Of a stretch of 64,000 nt of DNA, positions 2,365 through 25,216 are shown piece by piece. The notes under the pieces are model-generated. The model made no database searches. It had not been told where the DNA came from and saw only the letters and a list, made by a program, of their open reading frames with translations. Every line of letters starts with the position of its first letter. Position 1 is the stretch's first letter. Position numbers and translations under genes: made by a program. The DNA comes from an archaeon (GTDB lineage: Archaea > Iainarchaeota > Iainarchaeia > Iainarchaeales > DTGL01), in assembly GCA_029258755.1 (NCBI GenBank), contig JAPDKC010000027.1, positions 3,435-67,434 of the forward strand, given 5' to 3'.

Positions 2365-2486
2365 GACCTCCCTTCACTTATTACCTCCAAAAATTTTTGT
2401 GAATATAAAGGCAAGATGAATATATATAAGGAACCATTAAATTTAAATATCCTTAACTTTGAGGCTTTTTAACACCATTAATTCAC

Positions 2487-4679: not shown

Positions 4680-4689
4680 AGTATCACCC

Positions 4690-5292: not shown

Positions 5293-5297
5293 AGTGT

Positions 5298-5729: not shown

Positions 5730-5739
5730 AAAATCTCAC

Positions 5740-10259: not shown

Positions 10260-10260
10260 C

Positions 10261-12078: not shown

Positions 12079-12079
12079 T

Positions 12080-13549
12080 TTAATCCAACCTCACACCTTT
12101 TTCCCTCAGAATCTTTATTATAGCATCCTCTTTTGTGTCAGTAGTTACCCTTGAAAGCAGGGCAAGATTCTTTACTAAGCCACATTGCGGACCATCAGGC
12201 GTTTCTATGGGGCAGAATCTACCCCAATGCGTTCCATGCACATCCCTAGCTTCATAAAGCTCGCGGTTTTTGTTTAAAGGGCTCTTAACCTTTCTTATGT
12301 CTGTAAGTGGGCTTAAGTAATTAACTCTGTCCATAAACTTGCTTACTCCTGTTGCTCTGCCTATCCAATTGCCGGTTGCCATCGCAAACCTAATGCGCTC
12401 GGTTATAGCATCAGGTCTCACTATAGTGCTTATATTGAGCTTCCTGCGCCTCGTTACGGTTCTGTCTATCTGGAATTTCAAATCTTTTATGAAATATTTA
12501 AACGCATACCTGAAAAGATGCTCCATAAGCTTTCCGGAAAGCTCAACTCTTTTGTTTGCGTAATGATCTTTATCATCTTCTTCTCTTAGGTTGTATGCTG
12601 TTTCTATAGCCTTTGTAGCCATCATCCCAAGATAGAAAGCTTTTGCTAAGCGATCTGCTTTGCTCTGCCCTATATGCGGAAGCAAGAAACCATCTATGAC
12701 TTCTTGTGCCCTTCTCAAGCGATAGTCAATAACCTGACCAGGAGCAACGCTTCTTCCTATCTTATCAAGAGCTTCCCTTTCGCTAGCAATTTCCGTATTT
12801 TCCCAATTCAGCAATATATCGTTTTCAACTTCCGCTTCACTATAGGTAAAAGCAGACCTTATTTCCTCAAGCGTATCCATTCCCAAAGCTTTCATTAAAA
12901 CAAAAAGCTTTAGCTTCTTCGGGGAGCTTGGGAAGGTAACATAAAGCATGCCATTTGCCTTTCTTGTAATTCGCACACGGCCTTTAAAAGCACCGCTTGT
13001 GCTTATAACCTCGACAACTACATCGCCAGCGGCATTCTTTTCAGAAACCATAACACGGTCTGAGCACAACACTTCCTGTGACATCAGCGCTTTTTCAGAA
13101 CCATTTATTATAAAATAACCCCCAAAGTCGCAGGGATCTTCACCCATCTCTATAAGCTCTTCCTCACTTTTGCCATAAAGCCAGCATTTCTTTGACTTTA
13201 GCATTATAGGCAGATCTCCAACGTAAACAGTTCTTGAATCCTGCTCAATATCTCTGCGGAAGAGCTTCATATCCAAATAGATAGGACCTGCATAAGTCAT
13301 GTTTCTTATGCGCGCTTCCATGGGCCAGAAGTCGCTTCTCGGCGAGCCATCGGCTTCTACTATGCGTGGCTTTAGGACCTGAATATTATCTATTTCAACC
13401 CTTACCTCCTCTATCTTTGGCACAATAACCTGATTTTCCTTCACAATCTCTGGCAGCTTTTCCTCTATAAATTGATTGAAGCTCTTTATATCTTGCTCGG
13501 CAATGCTTTTGCCTCTATAAAAAGATTCAATTAAAGGCCATGTATCCAT
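12080..13549 (-). CDS. rpoB2: DNA-directed RNA polymerase subunit B'' (N-terminal half of split B)
   Basis: 489 aa. N-terminal rpoB lobe/protrusion-like sequence immediately upstream of B', with a 1-nt gap. Confidence 0.9.
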   Translation of the reverse strand: MDTWPLIESFYRGKSIAEQDIKSFNQFIEEKLPEIVKENQVIVPKIEEVRVEIDNIQVLKPRIVEADGSPRSDFWPMEARIRNMTYAGPIYLDMKLFRRDIEQDSRTVYVGDLPIMLKSKKCWLYGKSEEELIEMGEDPCDFGGYFIINGSEKALMSQEVLCSDRVMVSEKNAAGDVVVEVISTSGAFKGRVRITRKANGMLYVTFPSSPKKLKLFVLMKALGMDTLEEIRSAFTYSEAEVENDILLNWENTEIASEREALDKIGRSVAPGQVIDYRLRRAQEVIDGFLLPHIGQSKADRLAKAFYLGMMATKAIETAYNLREEDDKDHYANKRVELSGKLMEHLFRYAFKYFIKDLKFQIDRTVTRRRKLNISTIVRPDAITERIRFAMATGNWIGRATGVSKFMDRVNYLSPLTDIRKVKSPLNKNRELYEARDVHGTHWGRFCPIETPDGPQCGLVKNLALLSRVTTDTKEDAIIKILREKGVRLD

Positions 13550-13553
13550 AAGG

Positions 13554-13838
13554 TCACCTTACTACTCTATAATACAAGCTCTTCCCTGCTGTAGGCGAAA
13601 CGCGCTCTATCTCTATTATGTCGCCTGGCTTTGCCTTAAGCTTCTTTATTGCGGGGTCGGAGCGAAGTATTATGGGCAGCATGTCTTTTGTTGCATGTAA
13701 CTTTTTCAGAATTTCTTCTTCCTTCTCTTTCGGCACAATTGTGTGCTTTGGAACTAGAAAATGCCTTCGCTCCTCCACCCTATCGCCTGCCTTTTCGGCT
13801 TCTAAACTGAAAAAATCGTCACACTTATAGCTAAGCAA
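13554..13838 (-). CDS. rpoH: DNA-directed RNA polymerase subunit H (Rpb5 homolog)
   Basis: 94 aa. HTIVPKEKEEEIL...IIEIERVSPTAGKSLYYRVV is typical RpoH. First gene of the rpo cluster. Confidence 0.85.
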   Translation of the reverse strand: MLSYKCDDFFSLEAEKAGDRVEERRHFLVPKHTIVPKEKEEEILKKLHATKDMLPIILRSDPAIKKLKAKPGDIIEIERVSPTAGKSLYYRVVR

Positions 13839-13905
13839 ATTTTTCCTATTCTAATCTTTATCTATGGAAACAATTTTAAATCTTACCTAAGATTCTGGTT
13901 TTTGA
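13839..13905. promoter_or_regulatory. Divergent intergenic region, putative promoters for the rpoH operon (minus) and the MscS gene (plus)
   Basis: 67-bp AT-rich spacer with TATA-like tttaaat / ctttatc elements between divergent starts. No experimental support. Confidence 0.3.
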
Positions 13906-14721
13906 ATGGCTTTTACAGATATATTTGCAAGCTTCAATCCTTCATTCTTCCAGCAAGGAATCTTTGCAGAGAAGCTTTTAGGCATAGCACTTGGCAACTA
14001 TGCGCTTTGTTTCCTAACTATACTGCTCTTCCTTATTTTGGGTAAGATCGCTGTTTTCATATTTGGGCGTTATGTGCGCAAGCTGGCAGCAAAAACAAAA
14101 AGCAAGTTTGATGATATTATCGCTGAGACGCTTTCTAAGCCAATGCTTTGGCTTTTTGTTCTTGCTGGCTTTTACTTTGGAATAAGATTTCTTAGCTCGC
14201 AAGCTAGCATACTAGCGCTTGCAGATACTATAGTTTCGTCACTCGCCATCTTGCTAATAGCTTGGCTTTTCTGGCGCTTTGTTGACTCTGCAATCAAGTT
14301 TTACTTTATTCCGATTGCTAAGAAAACAGCAACGCAGCTCGATGAGCAGCTTATTTCGTTTGCAAGGAACGTTGCAAAAGCAGCAATAGGCATAATAGCA
14401 ATCTCGATGCTCTTAGAAAAGTTTGGTTACGATATAACCGCATTAGTAGCAAGCCTTAGCATAGGCAGCTTAGCTTTAGCTTTTGCTGCAAAAGAAACCA
14501 TAACAGATATATTTGGTGGTATAAATTTACTCGCTTCACAACCATTCGTTGTTGGAGATAAGGTTAAGATAGGCAGCAGCGTAGGAAAGGTTAAAGAAAT
14601 AGGGCTAATGCACATTCGCTTGGTAACCGATGAGGGCTACCTAATAACAATTCCAAATAGAAAGGTTGCTAGCTCAGAGATAACAAATATGAGCGCAGCA
14701 AAGCGGAAGAAGCAAAAATAA
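13906..14721 (+). CDS. Small-conductance mechanosensitive channel (MscS family)
   Basis: 271 aa. N-terminal TM helices plus an MscS-type beta domain (ITIPNRKVASSEITN). Confidence 0.8.
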   Translation: MAFTDIFASFNPSFFQQGIFAEKLLGIALGNYALCFLTILLFLILGKIAVFIFGRYVRKLAAKTKSKFDDIIAETLSKPMLWLFVLAGFYFGIRFLSSQASILALADTIVSSLAILLIAWLFWRFVDSAIKFYFIPIAKKTATQLDEQLISFARNVAKAAIGIIAISMLLEKFGYDITALVASLSIGSLALAFAAKETITDIFGGINLLASQPFVVGDKVKIGSSVGKVKEIGLMHIRLVTDEGYLITIPNRKVASSEITNMSAAKRKKQK

Positions 14722-14724
14722 TGC

Positions 14725-15168
14725 TTAGCTTTTAGCGCTTTTTTTCTTTTCTTTTAAGTTAACTATTCTGGCGCTGTAAAGAATAAAAAATACAATAAGC
14801 GCCGTTGTTACTGCTGTTATATATTCGCCCAAAGCAACAGCAAGCCCTATAGCGGAAACAACCCATAGGTCAGCAGCTGTTGTTAGGCCCCTTATTCTTG
14901 TTTCCGATCTGAATATAGCGCCCGCACCTAAGAAACCTATGCCTGTAACTATGCCTGCTGCCACTCGCGAGGGATCGACATTTGCAAATGAACCAAAGCT
15001 CATTGAAACAAGAGTGAAAACGCAAGCGCCCAAGCAAACCAAAGCGTGCGTTCTCACGCCTGCAGGCTTGTTCTTCGCTTCCCTTTCAAAGCCGATTATG
15101 GCACCTAAAGCAGTGGCTAAAAGAAGCCGTGCGATAAGCTCAATATTGCTTATGTACATGCTAACCAT
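14725..15168 (-). CDS. MgtC/SapB family membrane protein
   Basis: 147 aa. LLLATALGAIIGFEREAKNKPAGVRTHALVCLGACVF matches the MgtC N-terminal domain signature. Confidence 0.75.
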   Translation of the reverse strand: MVSMYISNIELIARLLLATALGAIIGFEREAKNKPAGVRTHALVCLGACVFTLVSMSFGSFANVDPSRVAAGIVTGIGFLGAGAIFRSETRIRGLTTAADLWVVSAIGLAVALGEYITAVTTALIVFFILYSARIVNLKEKKKSAKS

Positions 15169-15172
15169 TTTT

Positions 15173-15391
15173 CTATGCTTTTTTAAGCTCCTTCCGCTCT
15201 TTGAGCCAAACTTCCTTGAATTCCGCTATCTCCTCTTCGCTTAAGCCGAGCTCTCTAAGTTTCTCTACATGCTCTTCAAAGCTCATCTGCATGTATTGCT
15301 TGCGCCATGCCTTCATTTCTGGCGTATCTGGCAACGGCTTACCTTCTCGAGCTCTTTTTCGCACCATGTTGTTAATTTTTAAGAAAAGCAA
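15173..15391 (-). CDS. Small hypothetical protein (basic N-terminus, acidic helix)
   Basis: ORF only; no recognisable family. Confidence 0.35.
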   Translation of the reverse strand: MLFLKINNMVRKRAREGKPLPDTPEMKAWRKQYMQMSFEEHVEKLRELGLSEEEIAEFKEVWLKERKELKKA

Positions 15392-15409
15392 AATTTTATA
15401 ATAATACGC

Positions 15410-15772
15410 CTATTTTTTGCCGAAGGAAATTTTAACTACATCAAAGCTATCGTAAAAAGATATTCTCTTTTGAGATTTATAGATTATGATATGTGTTGCT
15501 ACTACCTCTGGATTCAGGTAGGGGGTTTCTTTTTTCAGTATTTTTTTCGTTTTTTCATTTAAATGTCCTTTCAAAAATTTTATGCCTGTTTTACCAAAAT
15601 GCTTATACCTTATCTCTCCTTCCAAGATTTTAAATTTAAACAATTCCGGATCAATGCTTTCTTTTTCCACATATTCTATGATAAAGGTATCAAAACCTTC
15701 ATCTAAAGCTTTATCTAAATATTTTTGCCATTTTTTCTGATTTGTTTCGCCTATGCTCAAAATTTTTAGCAC
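15410..15772 (-). CDS. Hypothetical protein
   Basis: 120-aa ORF, Lys-rich, no recognisable motif. First gene of the AT-rich island. Confidence 0.45.
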   Translation of the reverse strand: MLKILSIGETNQKKWQKYLDKALDEGFDTFIIEYVEKESIDPELFKFKILEGEIRYKHFGKTGIKFLKGHLNEKTKKILKKETPYLNPEVVATHIIIYKSQKRISFYDSFDVVKISFGKK

Positions 15773-15801
15773 CTTTATTTACATCTTTTTTGTGAACTCT
15801 A

Positions 15802-17103
15802 CTACCCACTGGGTGATGCAACAATAAAAACAAACCCGCTTAAAGACACATACAGGAGGAAGCATAGTAAGAGCCCAGTTGTAGTTCCCACTGCAATCGG
15901 TGCAGCATCCTGGGGAATGTTTTTATACGCTTCCAATCCCACCTCAATAGCTTTCTGACTTACTTGATAAGGTACAATCCACAAAAATTTTTTAATTTCA
16001 TTTCCTATTCTGTATGTATCTCTATCACAAATTTTCTTACATATCCTACTGGCAGAGTCATATATAAATGTACATAGTTTGGCTCTAGTATCGTAAAAGA
16101 TCCCTATATGAAGTTCAACAATCCATTTTCTTTGTGCCCTGTCATATACTTTTATATTTACGTGTTGCGTAGGTGCTTTAAGTGCTGGTTCTCCACATGC
16201 TTTTGCAGCCCCAGGCAAGGAGTGAGAGTGAGCATACACTATTACTTCATAATTTCCGCTGACCTCTTTGTAAAGAATTTTTGTGGCTCCTGCTATAGAT
16301 GGGGGATAGTTATAATAGCTTCCTCTATAGGAGTAAGGAGTATATGAACGCCTATAGGGAGAACAAGAACCGTAGGATCTTCCAGCAGTTCCTTCTTCTA
16401 TGACTCTTACACGCACAGTATCATTTATGCCATATCCAAATAGAGGTCCAACACCAAGTACACATCTCAATCCTTCTTCGCAGTCACTATCGTTCTTGCA
16501 ACCTTTTCCACCCTCCCTTATTTTCCCGCCACTTTGCGTATTTCCATACAACCATGAGTATTTTCTGTACCAATAACTAGACTGGGGAGTTCTTCTATAT
16601 GGTGAGGAATAACTACGATATCCAGATTTACATTCTTTTTTTACAGGATCGCATCCATATGGGCAGTATTTCCTTCCTGAAGAAAAATAGTTTCCATATA
16701 CGGTACCAGAAGGCCACTCAAGACATCTGTCGCTATCGTAGTTTCCACAAGTTTCTAAATAATTTCCATTGCATCTTTTTTCTCCAAATGTACATTCATT
16801 ATAGCAGCCCCAAGAGGATCGCCAATAGCTGCTCGAGGCATTGGTGGTTTTTGAATAATTGCTGTAAGAGATTGTTCTAAAAGAATGGTAATAATTTTGA
16901 CTGAATCTTCTGCTTATGTTATATCTATGGAGCACTCTATATGGGTTTTCTGTCAGAGAAGTGTTTTTCCATCGAGAGTTTCTATAAGGATAATAATAGT
17001 GCCTAATTATATACGCATTAACAGGAACAATGGAAATGAGAAGGAATATCACAAGAATTAGGGAAAAGGCCCTTAATATCTTGCCCAATTTTGTATATCG
17101 CAT
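15802..17103 (-). CDS. Cys/Tyr/Ser/Arg-rich secreted protein with N-terminal signal anchor and C-terminal TM anchor
   Basis: 433 aa. N-terminal hydrophobic LILVIFLLISIVPVNA; >20 Cys; long Y/S/R/N low-complexity segments. C-terminal GTTTGLLLCFLLYVSLSGFVFIVASPSG hydrophobic tail. Confidence 0.6.
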   Translation of the reverse strand: MRYTKLGKILRAFSLILVIFLLISIVPVNAYIIRHYYYPYRNSRWKNTSLTENPYRVLHRYNISRRFSQNYYHSFRTISYSNYSKTTNASSSYWRSSWGCYNECTFGEKRCNGNYLETCGNYDSDRCLEWPSGTVYGNYFSSGRKYCPYGCDPVKKECKSGYRSYSSPYRRTPQSSYWYRKYSWLYGNTQSGGKIREGGKGCKNDSDCEEGLRCVLGVGPLFGYGINDTVRVRVIEEGTAGRSYGSCSPYRRSYTPYSYRGSYYNYPPSIAGATKILYKEVSGNYEVIVYAHSHSLPGAAKACGEPALKAPTQHVNIKVYDRAQRKWIVELHIGIFYDTRAKLCTFIYDSASRICKKICDRDTYRIGNEIKKFLWIVPYQVSQKAIEVGLEAYKNIPQDAAPIAVGTTTGLLLCFLLYVSLSGFVFIVASPSG

Positions 17104-17208
17104 CTTATAATTTTGTTTTTTGTTAAAAATCTTTTAAAATTTATTTTTGGTAAATTTAATTTAACATTTTCCATAAACTTTTTATTACATTGAGTTCTAA
17201 AGTTTCTT

Positions 17209-17886
17209 ATGCTAGACGAATCCAAGAAAAACGAAATAAAAAGATTTGTAAAAGAATGGGTAAAAAGAAAATTCAACGAACTTTCTAAATTGGATCCCTC
17301 TGAATTACATCCAAATCCATTTTTACTTAGAGCTTTAGGAATCAAAGAAAATACCAAGGAAGCCTTTGAATTCGGGATTCGGCAAAGGATTGAAAGGAGT
17401 CTCGTCACATCTTTCGGACAATCTGTATTTGAAACTATGTTAAAGATTTTAGGCTTTGAAAAATCTAAAATAGAGGATATTGATCTTATTTTTGAAAAAG
17501 AAGGTACTAAATATTTTATTCAGTTAAAAAGTGGTCCTGAAGGATTCACAAGACCTGCTCTTAGTAAAACTAAACAAACTTTTGAAAAAATTAAATCTAC
17601 ACACCCAGATTGTAAAACGGTAATAGCTTTTGGTTATGGTGTGGCACAACGCCTTTCTCCAATTTGGGGGAGAGAAGCTAAAGAAAGTGCAGACTTACTT
17701 CTTATAGGAAAGGATTTTTGGGATTTCTTTTTGGGAGAGGGTACTTATGAAGAATTATTAAAAATATTTGAAGAAGCAGGCAATGAAGTAGTAAAAGAAA
17801 CGGGTGAAAAAGAAGGGTTGTACATCACTTTAGTCAGAAAGTTGTTGGAAAAGGTAAAGAATTTATTACAATTAGAAGAAATCTAA
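17209..17886 (+). CDS. Putative PD-(D/E)xK-like nuclease, candidate Type II restriction endonuclease
   Basis: 225 aa. IEDIDLIFEKEGTKYFIQLKSG resembles a D...(E/Q)xK catalytic core. Convergent, 7 bp from the stop of the adjacent DNA methyltransferase gene. Confidence 0.35.
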   Translation: MLDESKKNEIKRFVKEWVKRKFNELSKLDPSELHPNPFLLRALGIKENTKEAFEFGIRQRIERSLVTSFGQSVFETMLKILGFEKSKIEDIDLIFEKEGTKYFIQLKSGPEGFTRPALSKTKQTFEKIKSTHPDCKTVIAFGYGVAQRLSPIWGREAKESADLLLIGKDFWDFFLGEGTYEELLKIFEEAGNEVVKETGEKEGLYITLVRKLLEKVKNLLQLEEI

Positions 17887-17893
17887 ATTTCAC

Positions 17894-20296
17894 CTATTGC
17901 GGTAAGATTACTTTAGTAATAAACCCATTCTTGGTTGTGTCTATGGTATTTTTCTTACGAAGATCCACTAATGAAATATTAAAATATTTACAGACAAGAG
18001 TGCTTAGTTTAGGGCTCACTGACCCAAATATCTTTTTCAAAACATGTAAAAATATTAAACACTTATTGTGATTTGACAAATATCGTGAAAGATAATTCAA
18101 TATATTCTCATTTTTAGCGATTTTTATATATGCTTCTATACCTAACACTATACCCTGGGGTAAAATTACTTGCTGAAATAATTTATTCTTCTCTTGACAA
18201 TTTTTATAGTTGAAAGAAGTTAATTTTGCAGATGACGCGGCCATAAGAGTCAATAACCTTTCCCACTCTTGAATTTCATCATGAGGGCATATTTTTGCAT
18301 TTTGTAATAGAAGATCTACTTTTTTACAAAAGTTTAAAACTTCTTCCTTATCAAATTCTTTTTCTTTTCCATTTTTGTTAGCTATAATTAGTATTGTTCT
18401 ATTAAGCTTTGGTTCACCAAACATACTTACACTTCTTGTGGGATGTTCAGATACTATTGGATAAAACCCTTCTACTTTAAAGCCTGAAATGAAAAGAGAG
18501 TAGAGTATAGATTCCCACGCATTCCATGATTTATGAGTAAACCAAAGAATAAGTTTTCCATTATCCTTTAAAGCATCGTATGAAGCCCTCAAAAATTCTA
18601 CAAAATTTTTCTTATATTTTTCTACTTCTTTTTGAAAGTTATTACCCTTTTTGACTATTAATTCATCTTTTCTCGGAACGAATGGTAGTTTTGGATCCCA
18701 CCCAATAAATTCCCAACTTTTCTTTCCGTCTATCTCTTCATTAAAGAAATGCTTTTCTAAAATATCTTTTAATGAGTTTCTAAGGAAAATCCAAAAGAAT
18801 TCGCTAAGATCGCTATATATATGTTGGTCAAAATAAGGTGGATCTACATTTATTATATCTAGAGTTTTCCTTCCTAAATAATTAATTCTTTTTGCGTCAA
18901 ATTGTAAAATCTTACACTCCACGTTTACGTTTTCTAATTGTTTTACTAGTTCATTCACCACTGGAAAAATACCACCACCAGTAGTAGAAGAGGAGTTTGG
19001 TTCAAAAACCCAATATAAATTCTTAAAGGGTACTACTGCTTCAGAAAAGGTTAGATTTATCTGTATTTTTCTAGAACGAGCATATTGTCCTATTGTATCT
19101 CTAATACTTTTGTTAGTAAAGTTCCAAGTAGTCAAAATGGTATTAAAATCTACCATTTTACTTAAACCAAAAGAAAGATAAAGAGAAACGGCAGCTCCTA
19201 ATTCTCCATATTCATTTATAAGTTGTAATGATTTTTTGCGAATATATATCGTCAGTAAAACTAGACTAAGAAGTTGCCTAGGATTAAAAATCTCGTACCA
19301 ATATTTGATGTCATGTTCAAGTAAAGATGAAAAAACTTTATTTTCTTTAAGAATTTCTTCTTTTGGGAGGAATTTATCAAATTCACTTGTGTGGTCGGAG
19401 AGAAAGTTTGCAGCATCTACAAGTTTTAAATAGTCTTCTTCTTTAGGTTTTCTATAATTTCTGTTTTTATCCTTTATAAATAGGATTGGATAAACTTTCT
19501 TTATTTCTTCTTTGCTAACTTTCATTCCTCCGATAATCTTAGAGATAATTGTTTTATGTTCGTGGACCCACTCTTTTATTAAGGTATTTTTATTTTTCTC
19601 AAATTTTCTTCTACAATTATCGCATCTCACACTAAGAATATTTTTCTTTTTGACAACGTTTTTTTCTAAATCTAATGTTATTTGATTTCCGCAAAACGGA
19701 CATTCTACAATTTTCGAAAAGATATATGCATCATCACTTTCATTATAGAATTTTCGAAGTTTGAAATTAGCAAACTCTAGGAGTTTTTCAATCTCATTTT
19801 TTAAGAGGTTTAAGAGCTTTCTTTTAAACTTTAATGGAAATTCTATAGTCCCTTTTAATATAAGGTAAGCTACCGGATTATAATCAAAAGCAATAGTATC
19901 GGCTCCCAGTAAAACGCTTTCCAATGGAATTGAACCACCACCTGCCATTGGATCACAAAGGGTTATTGGTATTTTAAGAGGTGTTGGTAAGGTATATGAG
20001 ATAAGTGGTGGATAATTTTCTTTCACTTTTGAATGAATTTTATTCATGTTAAATAATTCAGAAATTTTTTGAGAGTTACATGCTAGTAAAACTGAAAATC
20101 TTGCCATGGACCTAGGTCTTCGTGCTAACCAAGGATGTATACTTCTAATTTTAGGATCAAAAAAATGTTTTGGGAATGGTATATTTAGTTCTTTACATCT
20201 CGCTATATAGGATGAACGGGGTTTATAACTCATTTCTATTGCAGCATCTCTATTTATTTCACGAAAAATTTCCAAAAATTCGTTGTCAATTTTCAT
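17894..20296 (-). CDS. DNA methyltransferase, DUF1156-type (N6-adenine/N4-cytosine class)
   Basis: 800 aa. HPWLARRP DUF1156-type motif. DPMAGGGSIP as SAM-binding motif I. Zn ribbon CPFCG...CDNCRRKF. Catalytic DPPY motif (INVDPPYFDQ). Confidence 0.8.
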   Translation of the reverse strand: MKIDNEFLEIFREINRDAAIEMSYKPRSSYIARCKELNIPFPKHFFDPKIRSIHPWLARRPRSMARFSVLLACNSQKISELFNMNKIHSKVKENYPPLISYTLPTPLKIPITLCDPMAGGGSIPLESVLLGADTIAFDYNPVAYLILKGTIEFPLKFKRKLLNLLKNEIEKLLEFANFKLRKFYNESDDAYIFSKIVECPFCGNQITLDLEKNVVKKKNILSVRCDNCRRKFEKNKNTLIKEWVHEHKTIISKIIGGMKVSKEEIKKVYPILFIKDKNRNYRKPKEEDYLKLVDAANFLSDHTSEFDKFLPKEEILKENKVFSSLLEHDIKYWYEIFNPRQLLSLVLLTIYIRKKSLQLINEYGELGAAVSLYLSFGLSKMVDFNTILTTWNFTNKSIRDTIGQYARSRKIQINLTFSEAVVPFKNLYWVFEPNSSSTTGGGIFPVVNELVKQLENVNVECKILQFDAKRINYLGRKTLDIINVDPPYFDQHIYSDLSEFFWIFLRNSLKDILEKHFFNEEIDGKKSWEFIGWDPKLPFVPRKDELIVKKGNNFQKEVEKYKKNFVEFLRASYDALKDNGKLILWFTHKSWNAWESILYSLFISGFKVEGFYPIVSEHPTRSVSMFGEPKLNRTILIIANKNGKEKEFDKEEVLNFCKKVDLLLQNAKICPHDEIQEWERLLTLMAASSAKLTSFNYKNCQEKNKLFQQVILPQGIVLGIEAYIKIAKNENILNYLSRYLSNHNKCLIFLHVLKKIFGSVSPKLSTLVCKYFNISLVDLRKKNTIDTTKNGFITKVILPQ

Positions 20297-20553
20297 TTTC
20301 CTACACCTCTAGCTATTTCTTTAACAACTTCTTCAGGAGATTTCAACTTATAAAGTCTTTTTCTTGCGTCCTCCGGATCCAATCTCATTTCCAGCCAACC
20401 AACCTTTCTCATTTCGGATAAAATAACGCTAACCATTCTTTCGTCATCTGGCAATGTTTGAGTAGCTTGCTCATGATTGAACTCTTTATCCTTAAACTTA
20501 ACCCAAAGCAAAGAGTAGCGTTGCATAAGCCATTTAGGTAAAGGTTCTACCAT
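20293..20553 (-). CDS. Small hypothetical protein translationally coupled to the methyltransferase
   Basis: 86-aa ORF; 4-nt overlap with the MTase start; 6 nt after the stop of the DUF262-HNH gene. Confidence 0.5.
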   Translation of the reverse strand: MVEPLPKWLMQRYSLLWVKFKDKEFNHEQATQTLPDDERMVSVILSEMRKVGWLEMRLDPEDARKRLYKLKSPEEVVKEIARGVGK

Positions 20554-20559
20554 TTTCTA

Positions 20560-21828
20560 TCACCTTTTTCTATGAATTTTATTTAAATGACATTCTTTAC
20601 ATACTAGTAAAGCATTCTCTACTATTGTCTTCCCACCTTCTATGTATCTATCTTTATGGTGAAAATGTGTATCGGGACTATCAAATTTTAATTCTTTACT
20701 ACATAGAGCACATTTACCGTTATATTTTCTAAAAATTTCTATTTTTTGTTCTTCTGTAAAAAATCTGTTTTCATCTAATCTCATTGGATTATATTTTTCT
20801 AAAAATCTTTTAAGAATCAGGGTATACCTCAGTGTTATGCTTTTTACACTTGTTGTGCCTTTACTCACGTTAATATTAAATTCTACTAATTCTTTATCTC
20901 CAGACATTGGAGCTTGTTTGACATCTTGATAAAATGTTTGTATAAAATTTTTGAAATTTTCTTTCCGAGTTTTCATTACATAATTTTCAAGAAGATGTGC
21001 AGCTAATAAATAAACTGTAATTATCCATGCAGGTTTTCTTAATTCTGGTGCTGTAGTTTGAAAGGTTTCTGTAAGAAAATTTAGGACACGGTGGATTTTC
21101 TTGTAAACTTTGGATTCTTTATTTAAGTGTTTATTCTTTTCAAAAAATTCGTAAATATATCTTGGACTGATATCCTTAATACCTTCACTTTCGAGATATA
21201 ATAATTGAGCGACAATATAGTAGTGTTTATATCTTTTTTTCTTGATTGGGACCACCTCTTTAAAGAATCTATGAGATGCTAATTCTCTCATTAGAAGAAC
21301 TATCTCTCCAGGAAAAGCGTTTAGTATCTCTCCTGGAAGTAGTGGTTTTCCATGTTGAAGTCTTCTAAATAAAACCCTTATTTCCTCATCTGTGTAATCT
21401 TCCAAGACTATAATTGGTAAAGGATAATTGTCAAATCTATTTTGCCATTCTTCATGAAGTTGGTTATATGTGTAAGCACCTTTACCATTATTCTTTTCTC
21501 TGTTTTTTTGATCATAAATAATATCAGCAGAAAATTTTTCGTTTAATTTTAATTTATTTTCTTTGAACTTCCAAATTGTGTTTAATCTTTGTTGCCCATC
21601 TACAATAAAATAGGTTTCCCCTTTTTTGTGTAGAAATATTGGCGGTACTGCTAATCCTCTAAGGATAGTATCTATAAAGTATTGCTCATCACTTAAACTC
21701 CACGTTCCAGCTTCTCGTTGATAGGTAGGATCAATTTTATATCTTTCCTTATGAAGTATAAACGTACTAATTAGTCGTGGTTTTGGTTCTGGAGGCTCTT
21801 TCAATCTCATTTTATCACCTATGTCCAT
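20560..21828 (-). CDS. DUF262 (ParB-like) - HNH nuclease fusion, GmrSD/SspE-like modification-dependent (type IV-like) endonuclease
   Basis: 422 aa. N-terminal IDPTYQRE...DGQQRLNTI DUF262 signature. C-terminal CALCS...HFHHKDRYIEGGKTIVENALLVCKECHLNKIH His-Me (HNH) finger. Confidence 0.8.
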   Translation of the reverse strand: MDIGDKMRLKEPPEPKPRLISTFILHKERYKIDPTYQREAGTWSLSDEQYFIDTILRGLAVPPIFLHKKGETYFIVDGQQRLNTIWKFKENKLKLNEKFSADIIYDQKNREKNNGKGAYTYNQLHEEWQNRFDNYPLPIIVLEDYTDEEIRVLFRRLQHGKPLLPGEILNAFPGEIVLLMRELASHRFFKEVVPIKKKRYKHYYIVAQLLYLESEGIKDISPRYIYEFFEKNKHLNKESKVYKKIHRVLNFLTETFQTTAPELRKPAWIITVYLLAAHLLENYVMKTRKENFKNFIQTFYQDVKQAPMSGDKELVEFNINVSKGTTSVKSITLRYTLILKRFLEKYNPMRLDENRFFTEEQKIEIFRKYNGKCALCSKELKFDSPDTHFHHKDRYIEGGKTIVENALLVCKECHLNKIHRKR

Positions 21829-21950
21829 AACATAATTAATAGTTTAAGAATTTATAAATTTTTTGGATAACCTATATACTTGACTATCGAAATATTTTAA
21901 TATTAGTTATGCTAATAACATATTAGATATGTGATAAACATAAGATAAAT

Positions 21951-21985
21951 CCCAGAGGGTGTTGGGTTAAGGGTCACCCTCTGGG
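21951..21985. repeat. GC-rich perfect inverted repeat (11-bp stem, 13-nt loop)
   Basis: cccagagggtg-ttgggttaagggt-caccctctggg in the AT-rich divergent intergenic region between the DUF262-HNH and integrase genes. Confidence 0.6.
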
Positions 21986-22002
21986 AGTGGAAGTGCCAGG
22001 CT

Positions 22003-23337
22003 ATGACAACCCCCACAATGAAAGATAGGGAAAGGAGGAAATATAAAACTTTTGTAAGTGAAAAATTTAGCTTGAGAAAGCTTCAGGAGTATGAAGAAGT
22101 TAAAACTTGGTTGAGAACGGTAAGTGAAAGTTCTAGAAGATTGTATTTACATGCTTTAAGACATTTCTGCGAATTTTGTAATAAAGACCCAAAAGAGCTA
22201 ATTTTAATGAGGGATAAGGAGATAAGAAATCCTGATCCGAATTCGAAAAGCGGTGTTAGAAACTTAATTCTTGATTTTAGAGAGTATTTGGAAAAAGAAG
22301 GTTATGCTCCAAAGACAATTAACGCTTTAGATGGTGCAGTAAGAAATTTCTTTTCTGCTATCCTTGGAAAAGCTGGAATGATAAATGTTAAGAATTACAA
22401 GGATGCTTGTGTTACTAAAAAGAAAGATTTTGTTCCAACTTTAGAGGAACTAAAGAAAATGTTGGAACTCTGTAATCTGGAGGAGAAGTTTAGGATAATT
22501 TTCTTAGCTCAAACTGGAATGAGAATTTCAGATGCCTTGGAATTAAAGGTTGGTAATGTTCTGAGAGAATTGGAATTAGGCAAAGTTCCCTTAGCAATTT
22601 ACTATGTTCCTAAGAAAGACAGAGATGCAATTGGAGAAAAAATAACTTTCTTGGCTTCAGATGGAGTTGAGATTTTAAAGCAATATTTAGAATGGAGAAA
22701 AAAGAATGGTGAAAATATTACGCCAGAAAGTCCTTTGTTTGTTGGAAGAAGTAAAAAGTATAATGGTATTAAGGTTACCAAACTTACTAGGCAAATGGTA
22801 AATTTGACTTTGAAAGAAGCTGTTAAGAGAGCTAGATTGGGGAATGGTAACGGAAAATATGGAAGGATAAGAGTCCATTGCTTAAGAAAATTCTTTGTCA
22901 CTCAACTAACAAATCACGGAGTTGAAGATAAGGTGGTTAACTTCTTTATTGGACATAAAATTCCTGAATTTGATAGAGTTTATTGGTTTAGGAGGGTTGA
23001 AGAGTTAAGAGAAATTTATAGGCAAAGAGAAAAGTTTCTTAATCCAATTTCTGGAACTCAGCATGAGGATTTGAGAAAGATTGAAGATTTGATCAAGAAA
23101 GTAAAAGAAATAGATGAAAAGTTGAAATCTTTAAATGAAACTAAGATCAAAGAGATTGTGTTTAATGTGATTAAAGAGTATGGAATTATTTTTAACGGGA
23201 CTAATCATTCAACTTCAAATCAAAAATATGATGTAAAGATTGTTACAAGTGAAGAAGAAATTATTGAGTTGGCAAAGCAAGGTTATGATTGTCAGCAAAT
23301 AGGAGAGAATAAGTGGTTGATGAAAAAGCGAATTTAA
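22003..23337 (+). CDS. int: Tyrosine recombinase / phage-type integrase
   Basis: 444 aa. Catalytic region with RISDALELK (Arg I), HCLRKFF (His-x-x-Arg II) and RVYW (Tyr). N-terminal SAM-like core-binding domain. Confidence 0.85.
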   Translation: MTTPTMKDRERRKYKTFVSEKFSLRKLQEYEEVKTWLRTVSESSRRLYLHALRHFCEFCNKDPKELILMRDKEIRNPDPNSKSGVRNLILDFREYLEKEGYAPKTINALDGAVRNFFSAILGKAGMINVKNYKDACVTKKKDFVPTLEELKKMLELCNLEEKFRIIFLAQTGMRISDALELKVGNVLRELELGKVPLAIYYVPKKDRDAIGEKITFLASDGVEILKQYLEWRKKNGENITPESPLFVGRSKKYNGIKVTKLTRQMVNLTLKEAVKRARLGNGNGKYGRIRVHCLRKFFVTQLTNHGVEDKVVNFFIGHKIPEFDRVYWFRRVEELREIYRQREKFLNPISGTQHEDLRKIEDLIKKVKEIDEKLKSLNETKIKEIVFNVIKEYGIIFNGTNHSTSNQKYDVKIVTSEEEIIELAKQGYDCQQIGENKWLMKKRI

Positions 23338-23353
23338 TTAATTAACCTTAACT

Positions 23354-24109
23354 TTACTGTAAGGATGCTGAAACCTTTTTTATAATTTTTTCCACTCTTA
23401 TTATTCCGAGTTTTGTGAGTTTTATTCCATTTTTATTAATATGGATAAACTTTTTTCTTTCCAATCTTCGTAAAGTTGTGCTGAGAAGTTGTGGATACTT
23501 TGGCTTCACAGAGAATATGATCTCATCTTTCTTAACCCTTTTTGGATAGTTAATATATAAAAGTAACAGAAGTTCATCGGAAAATGGTAAATTCTCCTTT
23601 AAAATTAAGATACTTCCATCCTCGAATTTTTCAACGACTGGTAATTTTCTCTCTACAAACTTATCTAAAACTTCTTTCATTTTATGTTCGTTAATCTTTT
23701 CCATAAAAAGTAAGAGTTGTGAAAATATCCAATCGGAAGCTTCAATAACATATTTAGCATCTATAAAATTTGGATCAATCTCTTTAAAATGAGCCACTTT
23801 CTTTTTACTTCTTAATGTATAAATCGATTTTGCGACAATAGGCACTACTAGTGTCAATATCTCGTCTTTCGCACTTAGTTTTTGTAGATTAATCAAGGTA
23901 TTAAACATTTTATCAAACTTGGATTTTCTAAAATCTATATTCTGTACATTATAGTATATCAAAATAGATCTAAGAACTATTTCAACGAATATTCCACCAG
24001 AAATTATTGTTTTTTCAAAGTCGGATAAAATAAAAGAATTCTTAATTTGATTATATTCCTTTATTAGTTCATTTATAAGCGGTATTTCTTGGAGTTTCAT
24101 CATATTCAC
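23354..24109 (-). CDS. Hypothetical protein (integrase-associated ORFan)
   Basis: 251 aa ORF, no recognisable motif. Confidence 0.45.
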   Translation of the reverse strand: MNMMKLQEIPLINELIKEYNQIKNSFILSDFEKTIISGGIFVEIVLRSILIYYNVQNIDFRKSKFDKMFNTLINLQKLSAKDEILTLVVPIVAKSIYTLRSKKKVAHFKEIDPNFIDAKYVIEASDWIFSQLLLFMEKINEHKMKEVLDKFVERKLPVVEKFEDGSILILKENLPFSDELLLLLYINYPKRVKKDEIIFSVKPKYPQLLSTTLRRLERKKFIHINKNGIKLTKLGIIRVEKIIKKVSASLQ

Positions 24110-24672
24110 GTGGATTTAACTTTCTCGATTTGTTCTTTTAATAGCTTCTTCGCTTCGTCAATGCCAGGCGGTAAAATATCTACAAACAAATATTTACCTT
24201 CTTTCCAGATTTTGATGTATTTTTTATACTTGGATAAATCTCTTTTTAAGTGAGAAACGTCGACCCATTTCTTTATCTTTTTAGACAATTCTTTTAGTTT
24301 GATAGGAGTTTTTTTGTAAATAGTCTTAAGTGGCAATAAAAGTATTAATGAAGCCTTTAACTGTTTACCTCTTCCTTCTAACTCTAGGTAATTAATATCT
24401 ACATCATCTTCCTTAAAATTATAAACATATTGTAAATCCTCTGCAGGGAAACCTAGCAATTTTTCCATATTTTTCTTTGGCTTCTGCACAGTTTTTTCAG
24501 TGTAATGGACTTTTTCTTCAATAATTAAACGAGAATACAATTTTTCAAAGTTTTCTTTAACAAATTTTTCATTTCCTTTTACTTCGATCTCGATTTCACC
24601 AATTTTTATTTTTATAGAGCATATAGAGTTTTCATTATTTTCTGTCATCTTTCTCACCATATTTACTTTCAA
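24106..24672 (-). CDS. Hypothetical protein (integrase-associated ORFan)
   Basis: 188 aa ORF, 4-nt overlap with the downstream gene. Confidence 0.45.
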   Translation of the reverse strand: MKVNMVRKMTENNENSICSIKIKIGEIEIEVKGNEKFVKENFEKLYSRLIIEEKVHYTEKTVQKPKKNMEKLLGFPAEDLQYVYNFKEDDVDINYLELEGRGKQLKASLILLLPLKTIYKKTPIKLKELSKKIKKWVDVSHLKRDLSKYKKYIKIWKEGKYLFVDILPPGIDEAKKLLKEQIEKVKST

Positions 24673-25069
24673 GTTCTTTCAAAATTTTTTCAATTTTTGT
24701 AGGGATTACACGATAAATTCCTTTTTTCTCACGTATCGAGAGTTTTTCATCTCTAATTTCCTTTAGCCTAGCCGAAACTTGCATTTTATCCACCATAAAG
24801 AAGTTTGAAATTTCTCGTGCCGAAAGAAAAGGTTTTATAGATTCATCTAGTTTACTAGCAATAAATCTTGCTACTAGTGCTAATTTAATCTTGTCTTTTA
24901 AAGTAAATTTGTCTCCAAGCTCCGTAAGATCAACTTCTCCTGTTTTTGTAATTTTACAATACCTCATAAGGCGTTTTACATACTGTGCTATTTTTTTCTC
25001 ATCAAAAGCTTTTTCATCAATTACCCATTTATTTTTTAGCTCTTCAAGATCGTCCATTTTCATACTCAC
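24635..25069 (-). CDS. Hypothetical protein, possible winged-helix DNA-binding
   Basis: 144 aa. C-terminal ISAREISNFFMVDKMQVSARLKEIRDEKLSIREKKGIYRV resembles a wHTH. Confidence 0.4.
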   Translation of the reverse strand: MSMKMDDLEELKNKWVIDEKAFDEKKIAQYVKRLMRYCKITKTGEVDLTELGDKFTLKDKIKLALVARFIASKLDESIKPFLSAREISNFFMVDKMQVSARLKEIRDEKLSIREKKGIYRVIPTKIEKILKELESKYGEKDDRK

Positions 25070-25216
25070 CTACTTGTTACCTGTATTTTGTATAATGTAT
25101 AATGTAAATTTAACCTTTATAAATCTTTTGGTAACCTACGTTTTGATAGAATACAAGGAAGAAACAGAGATGTTAAATTAAATTTACCAAAAATTTATTT
25201 TTCCAGCTTGTTACTC

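What the first reader, a model, noticed from the sequence alone, without database searches (positions are those of the whole stretch)
17209..21985. Composite defense locus: DUF262-HNH nuclease + small ORF + 800-aa DUF1156-type methyltransferase, convergent with a PD-(D/E)xK-like nuclease
- Three minus-strand genes form a tight operon: the DUF262-HNH nuclease, an 86-aa ORF 6 nt downstream, then the MTase with a 4-nt overlap. The candidate endonuclease gene ends only 7 bp from the MTase stop, which is the classic convergent R-M arrangement.
- DUF262+HNH/DUF1524 fusions are GmrSD/SspE/BrxU-type modification-sensing type IV nucleases. These normally occur without a cognate MTase, or with phosphorothioate systems.
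- As far as I recall, DUF1156 MTases are usually found with DUF499/DUF3780 partners, which are absent here.
- This combination therefore looks like an uncharacterised architecture. It could be an R-M system plus a type IV enzyme stacked together. It could also be a single system in which the DUF262-HNH protein reads the methylation status set by the MTase.
Basis: partly seen in the sequence, partly recalled or inferred. Interest (0 to 1): 0.75.

Follow-up and report, generated by a model that had tools for sequence, protein, structure and literature searches.

The report
Stacked restriction systems sharing one operon
An integrated low-GC island in an uncultivated archaeon carries an ordinary two-gene restriction-modification system and a separate, normally solitary DUF262-HNH nuclease; the two are joined into one operon by a small DNA-binding "leader" gene that recurs in front of many unrelated restriction systems, so this is a modular stack and not a new single defence machine.

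Summary
The composite splits into separable modules.

1. **Type II R-M pair.** The 800-aa DUF1156-clade MTase has invariant motif I (DPMAGGG) and motif IV (NVDPPY). The 225-aa nuclease passes the Pfam cut-offs for RE_EcoO109I and RE_TdeIII. In 25 other distinct loci, short-class MTase homologs sit next to a homolog of this REase, in all four orientations. None of those loci has an adjacent DUF262-HNH gene.

2. **Solitary nuclease.** The DUF262-HNH gene has intact DGQQR and Zn-HNH motifs but no DUF1524 domain. In about 40 full-length loci it never neighbours a DUF1156 MTase or this REase.

3. **Leader gene.** The 86-aa ORF is a MarR-like winged-helix protein (pLDDT 92) from a family of 414 clusters.
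   - It is the first gene of unrelated R-M operons, overlapping the next gene by 4 nt in the five operons where it directly abuts one, and it is sometimes fused to HsdM.
   - A conserved ~140-nt promoter leader precedes the wHTH directly, or DUF262-HNH then wHTH (here and in one 95%-identical relative), or another small nuclease then wHTH.

The "single methylation-reading system" idea is not supported. "Stacked" is supported, with an undescribed modular leader–slot–regulator organisation.

The parts
17209..17886 (+). Type II restriction endonuclease, 225 aa, of the Pfam RE_EcoO109I / RE_TdeIII families. The putative catalytic core is D92 ... Q105-x-K107 (nt 17476-17538), a Q variant of PD-(D/E)xK.
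   Evidence: Pfam scores are above the curated cut-offs. Homologs lie adjacent to short-class MTase homologs in 25 other distinct loci. The motif is read from alignment A6. The Q is shared with the 62%-identical L008 homolog.
17894..20296 (-). Short (about 800 aa) DUF1156-clade DNA methyltransferase. It has the N-terminal HPWLARRP motif (aa 54-61), motif I DPMAGGG (aa 115-121), an inserted Zn ribbon (aa 199-230) and motif IV NVDPPY (aa 483-488). An N6-adenine target is predicted.
   Evidence: PADLOC and NCBIfam hits. The motifs are invariant in the 20-sequence alignment A2. The Zn ribbon is seen in Pfam.
20293..20553 (-). 86-aa winged-helix (MarR/ArsR-like) protein, the leader gene of R-M operons. 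It overlaps the MTase start by 4 nt (ATGA). It is the candidate operon regulator.
   Evidence: 47 close clusters. 414 clusters at the 50% level, 228 of them at E<=1e-10. AF2 pLDDT 92.1 with H-H-H-beta-beta-H topology. Foldseek top hits are MarR-family regulators bound to DNA.
20560..21810 (-). DUF262(ParB-like NTPase)-ParBDB-HNH nuclease, 416 aa from the probable start (the ORF extends to 21828). It has the VDGQQR motif (aa 76-81 in ORF numbering) and a C-terminal zinc-finger HNH (C373, C376, H390/H391, C410, C413, H414, H419). It is type IV-like and solitary elsewhere.
   Evidence: Pfam GmrSD_N + HNH with no GmrSD_C. PADLOC NsnA 1.8e-28 over residues 26-338. Invariant motif residues in A1. 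The closest solved sequence relative of the HNH part is EcoKMcrA, 6ghc.
21811..21950 (-). Conserved non-coding leader/promoter of the operon. It contains a BRE/TATA-like CCAAAAAATTTATAAAT (21850-21866), a near-palindrome ATGTTATGGACAT (21821-21833) and an SD-like AGGTGAT immediately before the ATG (21808-21820).
   Evidence: The same sequence precedes the wHTH gene directly in L122 and L125, DUF262-HNH in L010, and a PDDEXK_5-like gene in L123. The promoter and operator roles are inferred.
21950..21986 (.). Perfect 12-nt inverted repeat (TCCCAGAGGGTG / CACCCTCTGGGA, 13-nt loop) between the leader and the divergent integrase gene. One arm is also present at the distal end of the L123 leader.
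   Evidence: Its function is unknown.
22003..23337 (+). Tyrosine recombinase/integrase (444 aa) of the island. It is context, not part of the defence operon.
   Evidence: Pfam Phage_integrase 1.3e-14, NCBIfam XerA-like 1.6e-19, PHROG integrase 9.4e-23.
17000..25200 (.). Low-GC island (0.29-0.33 against about 0.40 in the flanks) that holds all of the above plus three unassigned ORFs (23354-25069, minus strand). It is flanked by an unknown 433-aa ORF and an AAA-ATPase ORF that reads like archaeal CDC48.
   Evidence: Composition profile, per-gene GC, ORFs. No tRNA and no att-like direct repeat was found at the borders.

Best explanation
The locus is a stack of two functionally separable restriction modules, carried on an integrated mobile island and expressed through a shared, portable regulatory front end.

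**Module 1: an orthodox Type II R-M system.** The 800-aa DUF1156-clade MTase, predicted m6A from its DPPY motif, protects host DNA. The convergent 225-aa EcoO109I/TdeIII-family enzyme cuts unmethylated sites. By family analogy the site is probably a short interrupted palindrome.

**Module 2: a solitary DUF262-ParBDB-HNH nuclease.** It is a GmrSD/BrxU-like, NTP-dependent enzyme that most likely attacks modified (type IV) foreign DNA. It would be indifferent to the m6A mark made by module 1.

**The front end.** Both minus-strand modules are driven from one conserved archaeal promoter leader. The 86-aa winged-helix protein is the operon's DNA-binding regulator, most likely an autorepressor. This is analogous in role to C proteins or to the N-terminal regulatory domain of SsoII-type MTases.

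**The general design** is leader | optional nuclease slot | wHTH | variable R-M genes. In this locus the slot holds DUF262-HNH and the R-M position holds the DUF1156 MTase.

**Shown:** gene identities, motif integrity, recurrent M-R linkage, non-linkage of DUF262-HNH, the cassette boundaries, and the recurrence of the leader and the wHTH.

**Inferred:** methylated base, recognition site, modification dependence of DUF262-HNH, co-transcription, and the regulatory role of the wHTH.
For: **MTase and REase are a conserved pair.**
- 25 other distinct loci pair a short-class MTase with an adjacent REase homolog (jackhmmer E 1e-34 to 1e-117).
- All four orientations occur: 10 M>R, 9 R>M, 5 convergent, 1 divergent. 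In 22 of 25 the gap is <=136 nt.
- The REase passes the Pfam gathering scores for two type II families.
- MTase motifs I and IV are invariant.
- Long (about 1000 aa) homologs lack the REase. They carry a 1050-1100-aa P-loop protein with a weak DUF499 match (1.8e-08 in one of the two tested) and, in L104, a helicase gene. This matches the published DUF499/Hma systems (10.1101/2025.10.09.681413).

**DUF262-HNH is solitary.**
- None of about 40 full-length loci has a DUF1156 MTase or this REase, and only L010 also has the wHTH.
- Flanking genes show no dominant family. The top counts among 62 flanking proteins are integrase 3, Eco57I 3, T1R 2 and N6_N4 2.

**The cassette boundary is sharp.** Window/L010 DNA identity (about 95% falling to 85%) starts about 45 nt before the DUF262-HNH ATG. 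It stops exactly at the ATGA junction with the next gene, which in L010 is a Type IIG enzyme (PADLOC REase_MTase_IIG 3.7e-225).

**The wHTH is an R-M leader.**
- It overlaps by 4 nt the first gene of PLD-SNF2 helicase + MmeI/Eco57I-type MTase operons (L122-L130).
- It is followed (after an 85-aa ORF, no ATGA overlap) by a Cas4-like nuclease, with a convergent Type IIG-like gene beyond it, in L131.
- It is fused to HsdM_N + N6_Mtase in P0352 and to HsdM_N in P0363.
- It has a MarR-like fold.
- The leader is conserved across the three slot states.
Against: - No expression, methylation or cleavage data exist for any member.
- The REase has Q where most relatives have E in the (D/E)xK triad. No solved-structure match could be obtained, and the single-sequence AF2 model failed with pLDDT 47.
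- Only six independent wHTH contexts could be inspected, so 'always R-M' rests on a small sample.
- DUF262-HNH + wHTH was found twice, both times translationally coupled to an MTase-containing gene. That is more than pure chance juxtaposition and leaves room for functional cooperation.
- The wHTH precedes the MTase, not the REase, unlike classical C proteins. Its operator is not identified, and palindromes in this AT-rich leader are weak evidence.
- The wHTH copy in L010 carries an in-frame stop and a frameshift.
Confidence: 0.72

Rival explanations
1. This is a single integrated system. The DUF262-HNH protein reads the methylation state written by the DUF1156 MTase, SspE-like or by sensing unmodified DNA. 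Together with the wHTH it forms a three- or four-gene machine.
For: The operon is tight, with a 6-nt gap and a 4-nt overlap. The cassette lies upstream of an MTase-containing gene in both known instances. The Menshen study raises the idea that ParB-DUF262 proteins next to methylases might target unmodified DNA (PMC12065111).
Against: Linkage is not conserved in either direction. The two MTase partners (DUF1156 and Type IIG) are unrelated and would write different marks. The MTase already has a conserved cognate REase. Homologs at 68-69% identity stand alone, one of them between housekeeping genes.
Confidence: 0.07
2. The 86-aa wHTH is not a transcription regulator. It is a DNA-binding accessory subunit of the R-M enzymes (target loading or specificity), and its position merely ensures stoichiometric co-translation.
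For: There is a 4-nt translational coupling to the first R-M gene in the five operons where it directly abuts one (window, L010, L122, L123/124, L125-130). N-terminal fusions to HsdM exist. Protein sequence conservation is very high, 55-99%.
Against: It is coupled to mechanistically unrelated partners: a DUF1156 MTase, a Type IIG enzyme, a PLD-helicase and a Cas4-like nuclease. That fits a generic regulator better than a specific subunit. The fold is closest to MarR-type operator-binding repressors. A conserved non-coding leader travels with it. MTase-borne N-terminal DNA-binding domains are known regulators (M.SsoII PMC3978073; M.Ecl18kI PMC2760811).
Confidence: 0.13
3. The 225-aa REase is catalytically dead (Q105 in place of the acidic residue). 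The MTase is then effectively an orphan, or it is paired with DUF262-HNH as the only active nuclease.
For: The core is D...QxK, not D...ExK. No structural confirmation was possible.
Against: The Q is conserved in the 62%-identical L008 enzyme, which is also paired convergently with its MTase. The full-length ORF is maintained, and a member of its 90%-identity cluster lies on another contig. Other subgroups of this REase family also vary the triad (D-x-T).
Confidence: 0.06

Closest known systems
Orthodox Type II R-M systems with EcoO109I / AvaII / TdeIII(HinfI)-family endonucleases
   Same: The MTase and REase are separate, adjacent genes. The REase scores above the Pfam cut-offs for RE_EcoO109I and RE_TdeIII. 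The arrangement is convergent with a few bp between the stops.
   Different: The MTase is a large DUF1156-clade enzyme with a Zn-ribbon insert, a clade otherwise known from the MTases of DUF499 systems. The REase has a D...QxK core. The recognition site is unknown. By my recollection the classical partners in this REase family are compact C5 or beta-class MTases; that was not tested here.
DUF499-centred BREX-related / 'Hma' systems (DUF1156 N6-MTase + DUF499 ATPase + helicase-nuclease, with or without DUF3780)
   Same: The MTase belongs to the same superfamily (PADLOC HmaB 1.9e-32, NCBIfam DUF1156_antiphage 3e-30). It shares the HxWxARRP and DPPY motifs.
   Different: No DUF499 ATPase, helicase or DUF3780 gene is in the island. 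The protein is about 200 aa shorter. Its clade is always paired with a small type II REase. The NCBIfam score is far below the equivalog cut-off (105 against 1000).
GmrSD / BrxU / SspE (DUF262 + DUF1524) type IV and modification-sensing nucleases
   Same: It has an N-terminal ParB-like DUF262 with the invariant (I/V)DGQQR NTPase motif, followed by a His-Me-finger nuclease. It is a single polypeptide, located in a defence or mobile island, and often sits next to R-M genes (PMC4619093).
   Different: The C-terminal nuclease is a canonical Zn-finger HNH (PF01844, closest to EcoKMcrA), not DUF1524. The protein is about 415 aa, against 600 or more. The substrate is unknown.
Menshen NsnA and PD-T4-2_A (DUF262 sensor proteins)
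   Same: The best PADLOC matches are NsnA (1.8e-28, residues 26-338, covering DUF262 + ParBDB) and PD-T4-2_A (5.5e-16).
   Different: No NsnB ABC-ATPase or NsnC effector gene is nearby. Here the nuclease (HNH) is fused to the sensor, so it is a one-protein system.
R-M transcriptional control: C proteins, and MTases with N-terminal regulatory DNA-binding domains (M.SsoII, M.Ecl18kI)
   Same: A small DNA-binding protein is encoded at the head of R-M genes. Homologs are fused to the N-terminus of an MTase (P0352), as in SsoII-type enzymes (PMC3978073, PMC2760811).
   Different: The fold is a MarR-like winged helix, not the Xre-type HTH of C proteins. It precedes the MTase or a fused RM gene, not the REase. 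The host is archaeal and the promoter is of TATA/BRE type. It is shared among unrelated R-M types and has an upstream slot for extra nucleases. Regulation has not been demonstrated.

Membership tests
Type II restriction-modification system | Separate MTase with the SAM-binding motif I and the catalytic motif IV (D/N/S-PP-Y/F) | tested here: met
   DPMAGGG (aa 115-121) and NVDPPY (aa 483-488) are invariant across 20 homologs.
Type II restriction-modification system | Adjacent gene for a sequence-specific REase of a recognised type II family | tested here: met
   RE_TdeIII 64.6 bits (cut-off 27.2) and RE_EcoO109I 60.7 bits (cut-off 22.5). The genes are convergent, 7 bp apart.
Type II restriction-modification system | M and R genes linked recurrently across genomes | tested here: met
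   25 other distinct loci, in four orientations.
Type II restriction-modification system | Site-specific cleavage that is blocked by the cognate methylation | not testable with these tools
   This needs biochemistry or a methylome. AGNCT depletion in the host DNA could not be assigned to this system.
DUF499-centred BREX-related / Hma system | DUF1156-type N6-MTase | tested here: inconclusive
   The superfamily matches are clear, but the score is far below the NCBIfam equivalog cut-off, and Pfam PF06634 is not hit in the window protein.
DUF499-centred BREX-related / Hma system | Adjacent DUF499 AAA+ ATPase and helicase(-nuclease), with or without DUF3780 | tested here: not met
   No such genes are in the island. 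They are present beside the roughly 1000-aa homologs instead.
GmrSD / BrxU / SspE family | DUF262 domain with the DGQQR NTPase motif | tested here: met
   GmrSD_N 7.6e-17. I75-V-D-G-Q-Q-R81 is invariant.
GmrSD / BrxU / SspE family | C-terminal DUF1524 (GmrSD_C) nuclease domain | tested here: not met
   There is no PF07510 hit. PF01844 HNH with a CxxC...CxxCH zinc finger is present in its place.
GmrSD / BrxU / SspE family | NTP-stimulated cleavage of modified DNA | not testable with these tools
   This needs an enzymatic assay.
Menshen (NsnABC) | NsnA-like DUF262 + ParBDB protein | tested here: met
   PADLOC NsnA 1.8e-28 over residues 26-338.
Menshen (NsnABC) | Operonic NsnB ABC-ATPase and NsnC effector | tested here: not met
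   No PADLOC or Pfam hits to such genes occur in the island.
C-protein-controlled R-M system | Xre-type HTH controller gene upstream of, and co-transcribed with, the REase gene, with C-box operators | tested here: not met
   The 86-aa protein has a MarR-like winged-helix fold and precedes the MTase. The REase is on the opposite strand. No C-box-like repeat was established.

The most novel reading that the evidence does not exclude
The conserved leader + wHTH is a portable regulatory cassette of archaeal defence operons with a built-in 'slot'. That slot recruits extra nucleases (DUF262-HNH here, PDDEXK_5-like elsewhere) and places a modification-dependent enzyme and a modification-based R-M system under one regulator. 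The two layers would then be established and dosed together and would cooperate functionally, for example with type IV cover against phages that evade the type II enzyme by hypermodification. A stronger form is that the DUF262-HNH activity is gated by the wHTH or by the co-expressed MTase.
Probability: 0.2. Interest if true: 0.65.

Novelty: new variant of a known kind. Interest (0 to 1): 0.42.

Why it matters
**For annotation.**
- DUF1156-type MTases are not diagnostic of DUF499/Hma/BREX-related systems. A short, mostly archaeal clade is the MTase of plain type II R-M pairs.
- DUF262 proteins with a canonical HNH form a compact, conserved, solitary family that current defence catalogues only hit through NsnA and PD-T4-2 models.

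**For biology.** The recurrent wHTH leader with a conserved promoter in front of unrelated R-M types is a candidate regulatory principle for archaeal R-M systems. Very little is known about how those systems are controlled when they enter a new host. It also illustrates how defence islands assemble by cassette swapping at exact gene junctions.

None of this overturns current understanding. It refines it.

Tried and rejected
1. **Island borders.** No tRNA lies at the edges and no convincing att direct repeat was found.
2. **Exact-contig lookup of the MTase.** Nothing is on record. No source gives an organism name.
3. **Structural confirmation of the REase.**
   - phmmer and a 24-sequence profile against PDB sequences gave no REase hit.
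   - The single-sequence AF2 model had pLDDT 47 and was not used for a fold search. Homologs taken from fetched loci could not be submitted.
4. **Recognition site from site avoidance.**
   - AGNCT is the most depleted of the 256 XYNZW patterns in the host DNA: 72 observed against 156 expected, z = -6.7.
   - It is not depleted in the island, nor on the contig with the closest REase relative (L008: 59 against 54). I rejected it as evidence for this system.
5. **Bacterial promoter/terminator scan.** Counts were no higher than in shuffles, and the scan is irrelevant for an archaeon.
6. **wHTH and MTase in plasmid records.** No wHTH match was found, and the MTase gave only remote canonical DUF1156 hits at 23-26% identity.
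7. **Operator palindromes in the leader.** Several exist, including the TATA-centred AAAAATTTATAAATT(C/T)TT. In DNA this AT-rich they are weak evidence.
8. **RBS 'duplication' flanking the DUF262-HNH insert.** It is explained simply by the SD consensus GGTGAT, so I did not treat it as a target-site duplication.
9. **Menshen, PD-T4-2, Hma and classical C-protein membership.** Each was considered and rejected on missing partner genes or a different fold.

Full report
**1. Observation**

- REase-like ORF: 17209-17886 (+), 225 aa.
- MTase: 17894-20296 (-), 800 aa.
- Small ORF: 20293-20553 (-), 86 aa.
- DUF262-HNH ORF: 20560-21828 (-), 422 aa.

The two stops of the convergent pair are 7 bp apart. 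The DUF262-HNH stop and the 86-aa start are 6 nt apart. The 86-aa ORF and the MTase overlap by ATGA.

All four genes lie in a low-GC island (about 0.30 against about 0.40) from roughly 17000 to 25200.
- The island also carries a divergent tyrosine integrase at 22003-23337.
- It carries three ORFs with no family assignment.
- One flank is an unknown 433-aa ORF. The other is an AAA-ATPase ORF that reads like archaeal CDC48; that label is my reading of the translation, not a family scan.
- No tRNA or att-type repeat marks the borders.

**2. What the proteins are**

*The 225-aa protein.*
- It scores above the curated Pfam cut-offs for two type II endonuclease families: RE_TdeIII 64.6 bits against 27.2, and RE_EcoO109I 60.7 against 22.5.
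- In an alignment with 23 homologs, the nuclease core reads D92...Q105-x-K107. Most relatives have D...E-x-K.
- The Q is shared with its closest relative (62% identity, L008), which is paired with an MTase in the same way.

*The 800-aa protein.*
- It matches DUF1156/HmaB-type MTase models: PADLOC 1.9e-32 and 3.4e-22, NCBIfam DUF1156_antiphage 3e-30. The NCBIfam score is far below the equivalog cut-off.
- It has a Zn ribbon at residues 194-243.
- Three motifs are invariant across 20 homologs at 37-56% identity: H54-P-W-x-A-R-R, motif I D115-PMAGGG, and motif IV N483-VDPPY.
- DPPY points to an exocyclic-amino MTase, most likely N6-adenine. This follows from established motif knowledge and from the literature on the clade, 10.1101/2025.10.09.681413.

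*The 422-aa protein.*
- It has GmrSD_N (7.6e-17) and a canonical HNH (7.4e-06), with no DUF1524.
- Its best defence-model match is NsnA over residues 26-338, which covers DUF262 plus the ParBDB region (PMC12065111).
- The motif I75-VDGQQR and the residues C373, C376, H390, H391, C410, C413, H414 and H419 are invariant.
- The nearest solved sequence relative of the HNH part is EcoKMcrA.

*The 86-aa protein.*
- The model is confident (pLDDT 92.1) and shows a winged helix.
- Its closest solved folds are MarR-family regulators, several of them bound to operator DNA.

**3. Linkage test, starting from the MTase**

Four close homologs (48-56% identity) on long contigs each have an adjacent PF09520/PF14511 REase. 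None has an adjacent DUF262-HNH gene. One has a DUF262-DUF1524 GmrSD 1.7 kb away, in a defence island.

A profile-based scan of 185,579 species genomes gave 50 more loci. Local ORF calling and jackhmmer show a clean split.
- Short-class MTases (roughly 670-840 aa where complete, roughly >=35% identity; three more are cut by contig ends) have an adjacent homolog of the 225-aa REase in 25 distinct loci.
  - The orientations are 10 M>R, 9 R>M, 5 convergent and 1 divergent.
  - The gap is <=136 nt in 22 of the 25.
- The roughly 1000-aa MTases (30-35% identity) never have the REase.
  - They are followed by a conserved 1050-1100-aa P-loop protein, with a weak DUF499_antiphage match of 1.8e-08 in one of the two tested. 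L104 also has a DEAD/ResIII helicase gene upstream.
  - This is the published DUF499/Hma/BREX-related arrangement.
- The exceptions in the short class are contig-end truncations, one fragmented pseudogene (L110), and L087, which is followed by a 1203-aa protein.

Co-occurrence that is independent of gene order is strong evidence that the MTase and the REase are a functional pair.

**4. Linkage test, starting from DUF262-HNH**

The family is compact (about 415 aa), strongly conserved, and present in both archaea and bacteria.
- Four homologs at 68-69% identity sit in unrelated contexts: two defence or mobile islands, one R-M-rich region, and one between peptidase and SH3 genes.
- A metagenome scan added 57 loci.
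- In about 40 loci with a full-length gene, no DUF1156 MTase, no homolog of the 225-aa REase and no homolog of the 86-aa protein was found, apart from L010.
- A Pfam scan of 62 flanking proteins shows no dominant partner. The top counts are integrase 3, Eco57I 3, type I R 2 and N6_N4 MTase 2.

This is the defence-island scatter already described for GmrSD homologs (PMC4619093).

**5. The informative exception**

L010 carries a 95%-identical DUF262-HNH and an 88%-identical copy of the 86-aa ORF. That copy has an in-frame TAG and a 1-nt frameshift.
- The downstream gene again starts at an ATGA overlap.
- It is a Type IIG Eco57I/MmeI-like RM fusion (PADLOC 3.7e-225), unrelated to the DUF1156 MTase.
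- The DNA alignment shows homology starting about 45 nt upstream of the DUF262-HNH ATG and ending exactly at the ATGA junction.

**6. The 86-aa wHTH is the organising element**

- It has 47 close clusters at 55-99% identity. An exhaustive profile search finds 414 clusters at the 50% level, 228 of them at E<=1e-10, almost all 75-110 aa.
- In every context I could inspect, it heads restriction-type genes.
  - Window: DUF1156 MTase.
  - L010: Type IIG enzyme.
  - L122 and L125-L130: a PLD-SNF2 helicase-nuclease followed by an MmeI/Eco57I/TaqI_C-type MTase, with a 4-nt overlap.
  - L123/L124: the same, with a 154-aa PDDEXK_5-like gene 6 nt upstream.
  - L131 (58% identity): an 85-aa ORF and then a Cas4-like PD-(D/E)xK nuclease follow, with a convergent HSDR_N_2 + N6_Mtase/Eco57I gene beyond them; there is no ATGA overlap here.
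- Rare fusions exist.
  - Two link it to MTase domains: wHTH + HsdM_N + N6_Mtase (P0352) and wHTH + HsdM_N (P0363).
  - One weak match is to EcoRII-C.
  - Two fusions look unrelated, to GH130 and to a KaiC-like ATPase.

**7. A shared leader with a slot**

The roughly 130-140 nt upstream of the first gene is conserved across these operons. It contains CCAAAAAATTTATAAAT (BRE/TATA-like), ATGTTATGGACAT (a perfect ATGTT-ATG-AACAT in L125) and AGGTGAT just before the ATG.

The leader precedes three different arrangements.
- The wHTH gene directly, in L122 and L125.
- DUF262-HNH followed by the wHTH, in the window and in L010.
- The PDDEXK_5-like gene followed by the wHTH, in L123.

The architecture is therefore leader | optional nuclease slot | wHTH | variable R-M genes.

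The leader also explains the first 18 nt of the annotated DUF262-HNH ORF, so the true start is probably 21810.

I infer, but have not shown, three things.
- The leader is the promoter for all three minus-strand genes.
- The wHTH binds the leader.
- The REase uses its own promoter on the other strand.

**8. Mechanism**

*Best-supported reading (confidence about 0.72).*
- Module 1 is an orthodox type II R-M pair.
  - The MTase methylates host sites and the REase cleaves unmethylated sites.
  - By analogy with EcoO109I (RG^GNCCY) and AvaII (G^GWCC), which leave 3-nt 5' overhangs (PMC7337904), the site may be a short interrupted palindrome.
- Module 2 is a one-protein, NTP-dependent, GmrSD/BrxU-like nuclease that probably targets modified DNA (PMC10952713, PMC12707154).
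  - It would be compatible with an m6A-writing neighbour.
- The wHTH would set the expression level of the operon. This role is comparable to C proteins (PMC2175313) or to the N-terminal regulatory domains of M.SsoII and M.Ecl18kI (PMC3978073, PMC2760811).

*Rivals, each with its confidence.*
- One integrated methylation-reading system: 0.07.
- The wHTH as an enzyme accessory subunit, not a regulator: 0.13.
- A dead REase: 0.06.

**9. Comparison and novelty**

Each enzyme is a member or variant of a known kind.
- I did not find, in the searchable literature, a description of the short DUF1156-clade MTase as the partner of EcoO109I/TdeIII-family REases.
- I also found no description of a MarR-like wHTH leader shared by unrelated archaeal R-M operons.
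- That library is incomplete, and REBASE could not be consulted.

I rate the locus a new variant of a known kind. It is a defence-island stack fused into one operon by a portable leader/regulator cassette.

**10. Limits**

- There are no functional data for any member.
- The REase fold is unconfirmed.
- Only six independent wHTH contexts and a few fusions were inspected.
- The AGNCT depletion is unassigned.

Noticed in passing
window 1-17000 and 25200-64000 (host part): AGNCT is strongly depleted: 72 observed against 156 expected from a 3rd-order Markov model, z = -6.7. It is the lowest of all 256 XYNZW patterns (the next is -3.1), and the depletion holds for all four central bases. The island is not depleted (15 against 14). 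This suggests a resident or past R-M activity on AGNCT. It could not be tied to this system, because L008, which carries the closest REase, is not depleted.
   Followed up: partly
L122, L123-L130 (for example L123:7001-13706): A recurrent three-gene operon: wHTH, then a PLD-nuclease/SNF2-helicase of about 1015-1083 aa, then an MmeI/Eco57I/TaqI_C-type MTase of about 1067-1085 aa. The genes overlap by 4 nt. It looks like an R-M-like system in its own right and is the commonest partner of the wHTH leader in my small sample.
   Followed up: partly
L123:6530-6994: A 154-aa PDDEXK_5-like protein (Pfam 1.3e-05, just under the cut-off) occupies the same 'slot' between the leader and the wHTH that DUF262-HNH occupies in the window, also with a 6-nt gap.
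   Followed up: partly
window 21950-21986: A perfect 12-nt inverted repeat (TCCCAGAGGGTG ... CACCCTCTGGGA, 13-nt loop) lies between the operon leader and the integrase start. One arm is also present at the distal end of the L123 leader, next to a DDE transposase gene. It may be a cassette boundary or a recombination site.
   Followed up: no
window 23354-25069 (minus strand): Three consecutive or overlapping ORFs (251, 188 and 144 aa) in the low-GC island have no significant Pfam, NCBIfam, PADLOC or PHROG match; the only hit is a weak ParB-CE match for the 188-aa ORF. They presumably belong to the integrated element.
   Followed up: partly
L010:1369-1624: The wHTH copy downstream of the 95%-identical DUF262-HNH has an in-frame TAG and a 1-nt deletion. 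Its nucleotide identity drops to about 85%, against about 95% in the upstream gene. It is either a decaying gene or an assembly error in a Logan contig.
   Followed up: no
window 15802-17103 (minus strand): A 433-aa ORF bordering the island is rich in Tyr, Ser, Arg and Cys, has an N-terminal hydrophobic segment and a C-terminal TM-like segment, and has no Pfam match. It may be a secreted or surface protein.
   Followed up: no
L001:10462-11538 and L109: In a few MTase-REase loci a third gene (for example 358 aa in L001) lies between the M and R genes. I did not identify it.
   Followed up: no
L131:1283-2389: An IS605-type TnpB/Cas12f-like gene lies next to the wHTH-led nuclease/Type IIG cluster on an IMG/VR contig. 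This is another sign that these cassettes travel with mobile elements.
   Followed up: no
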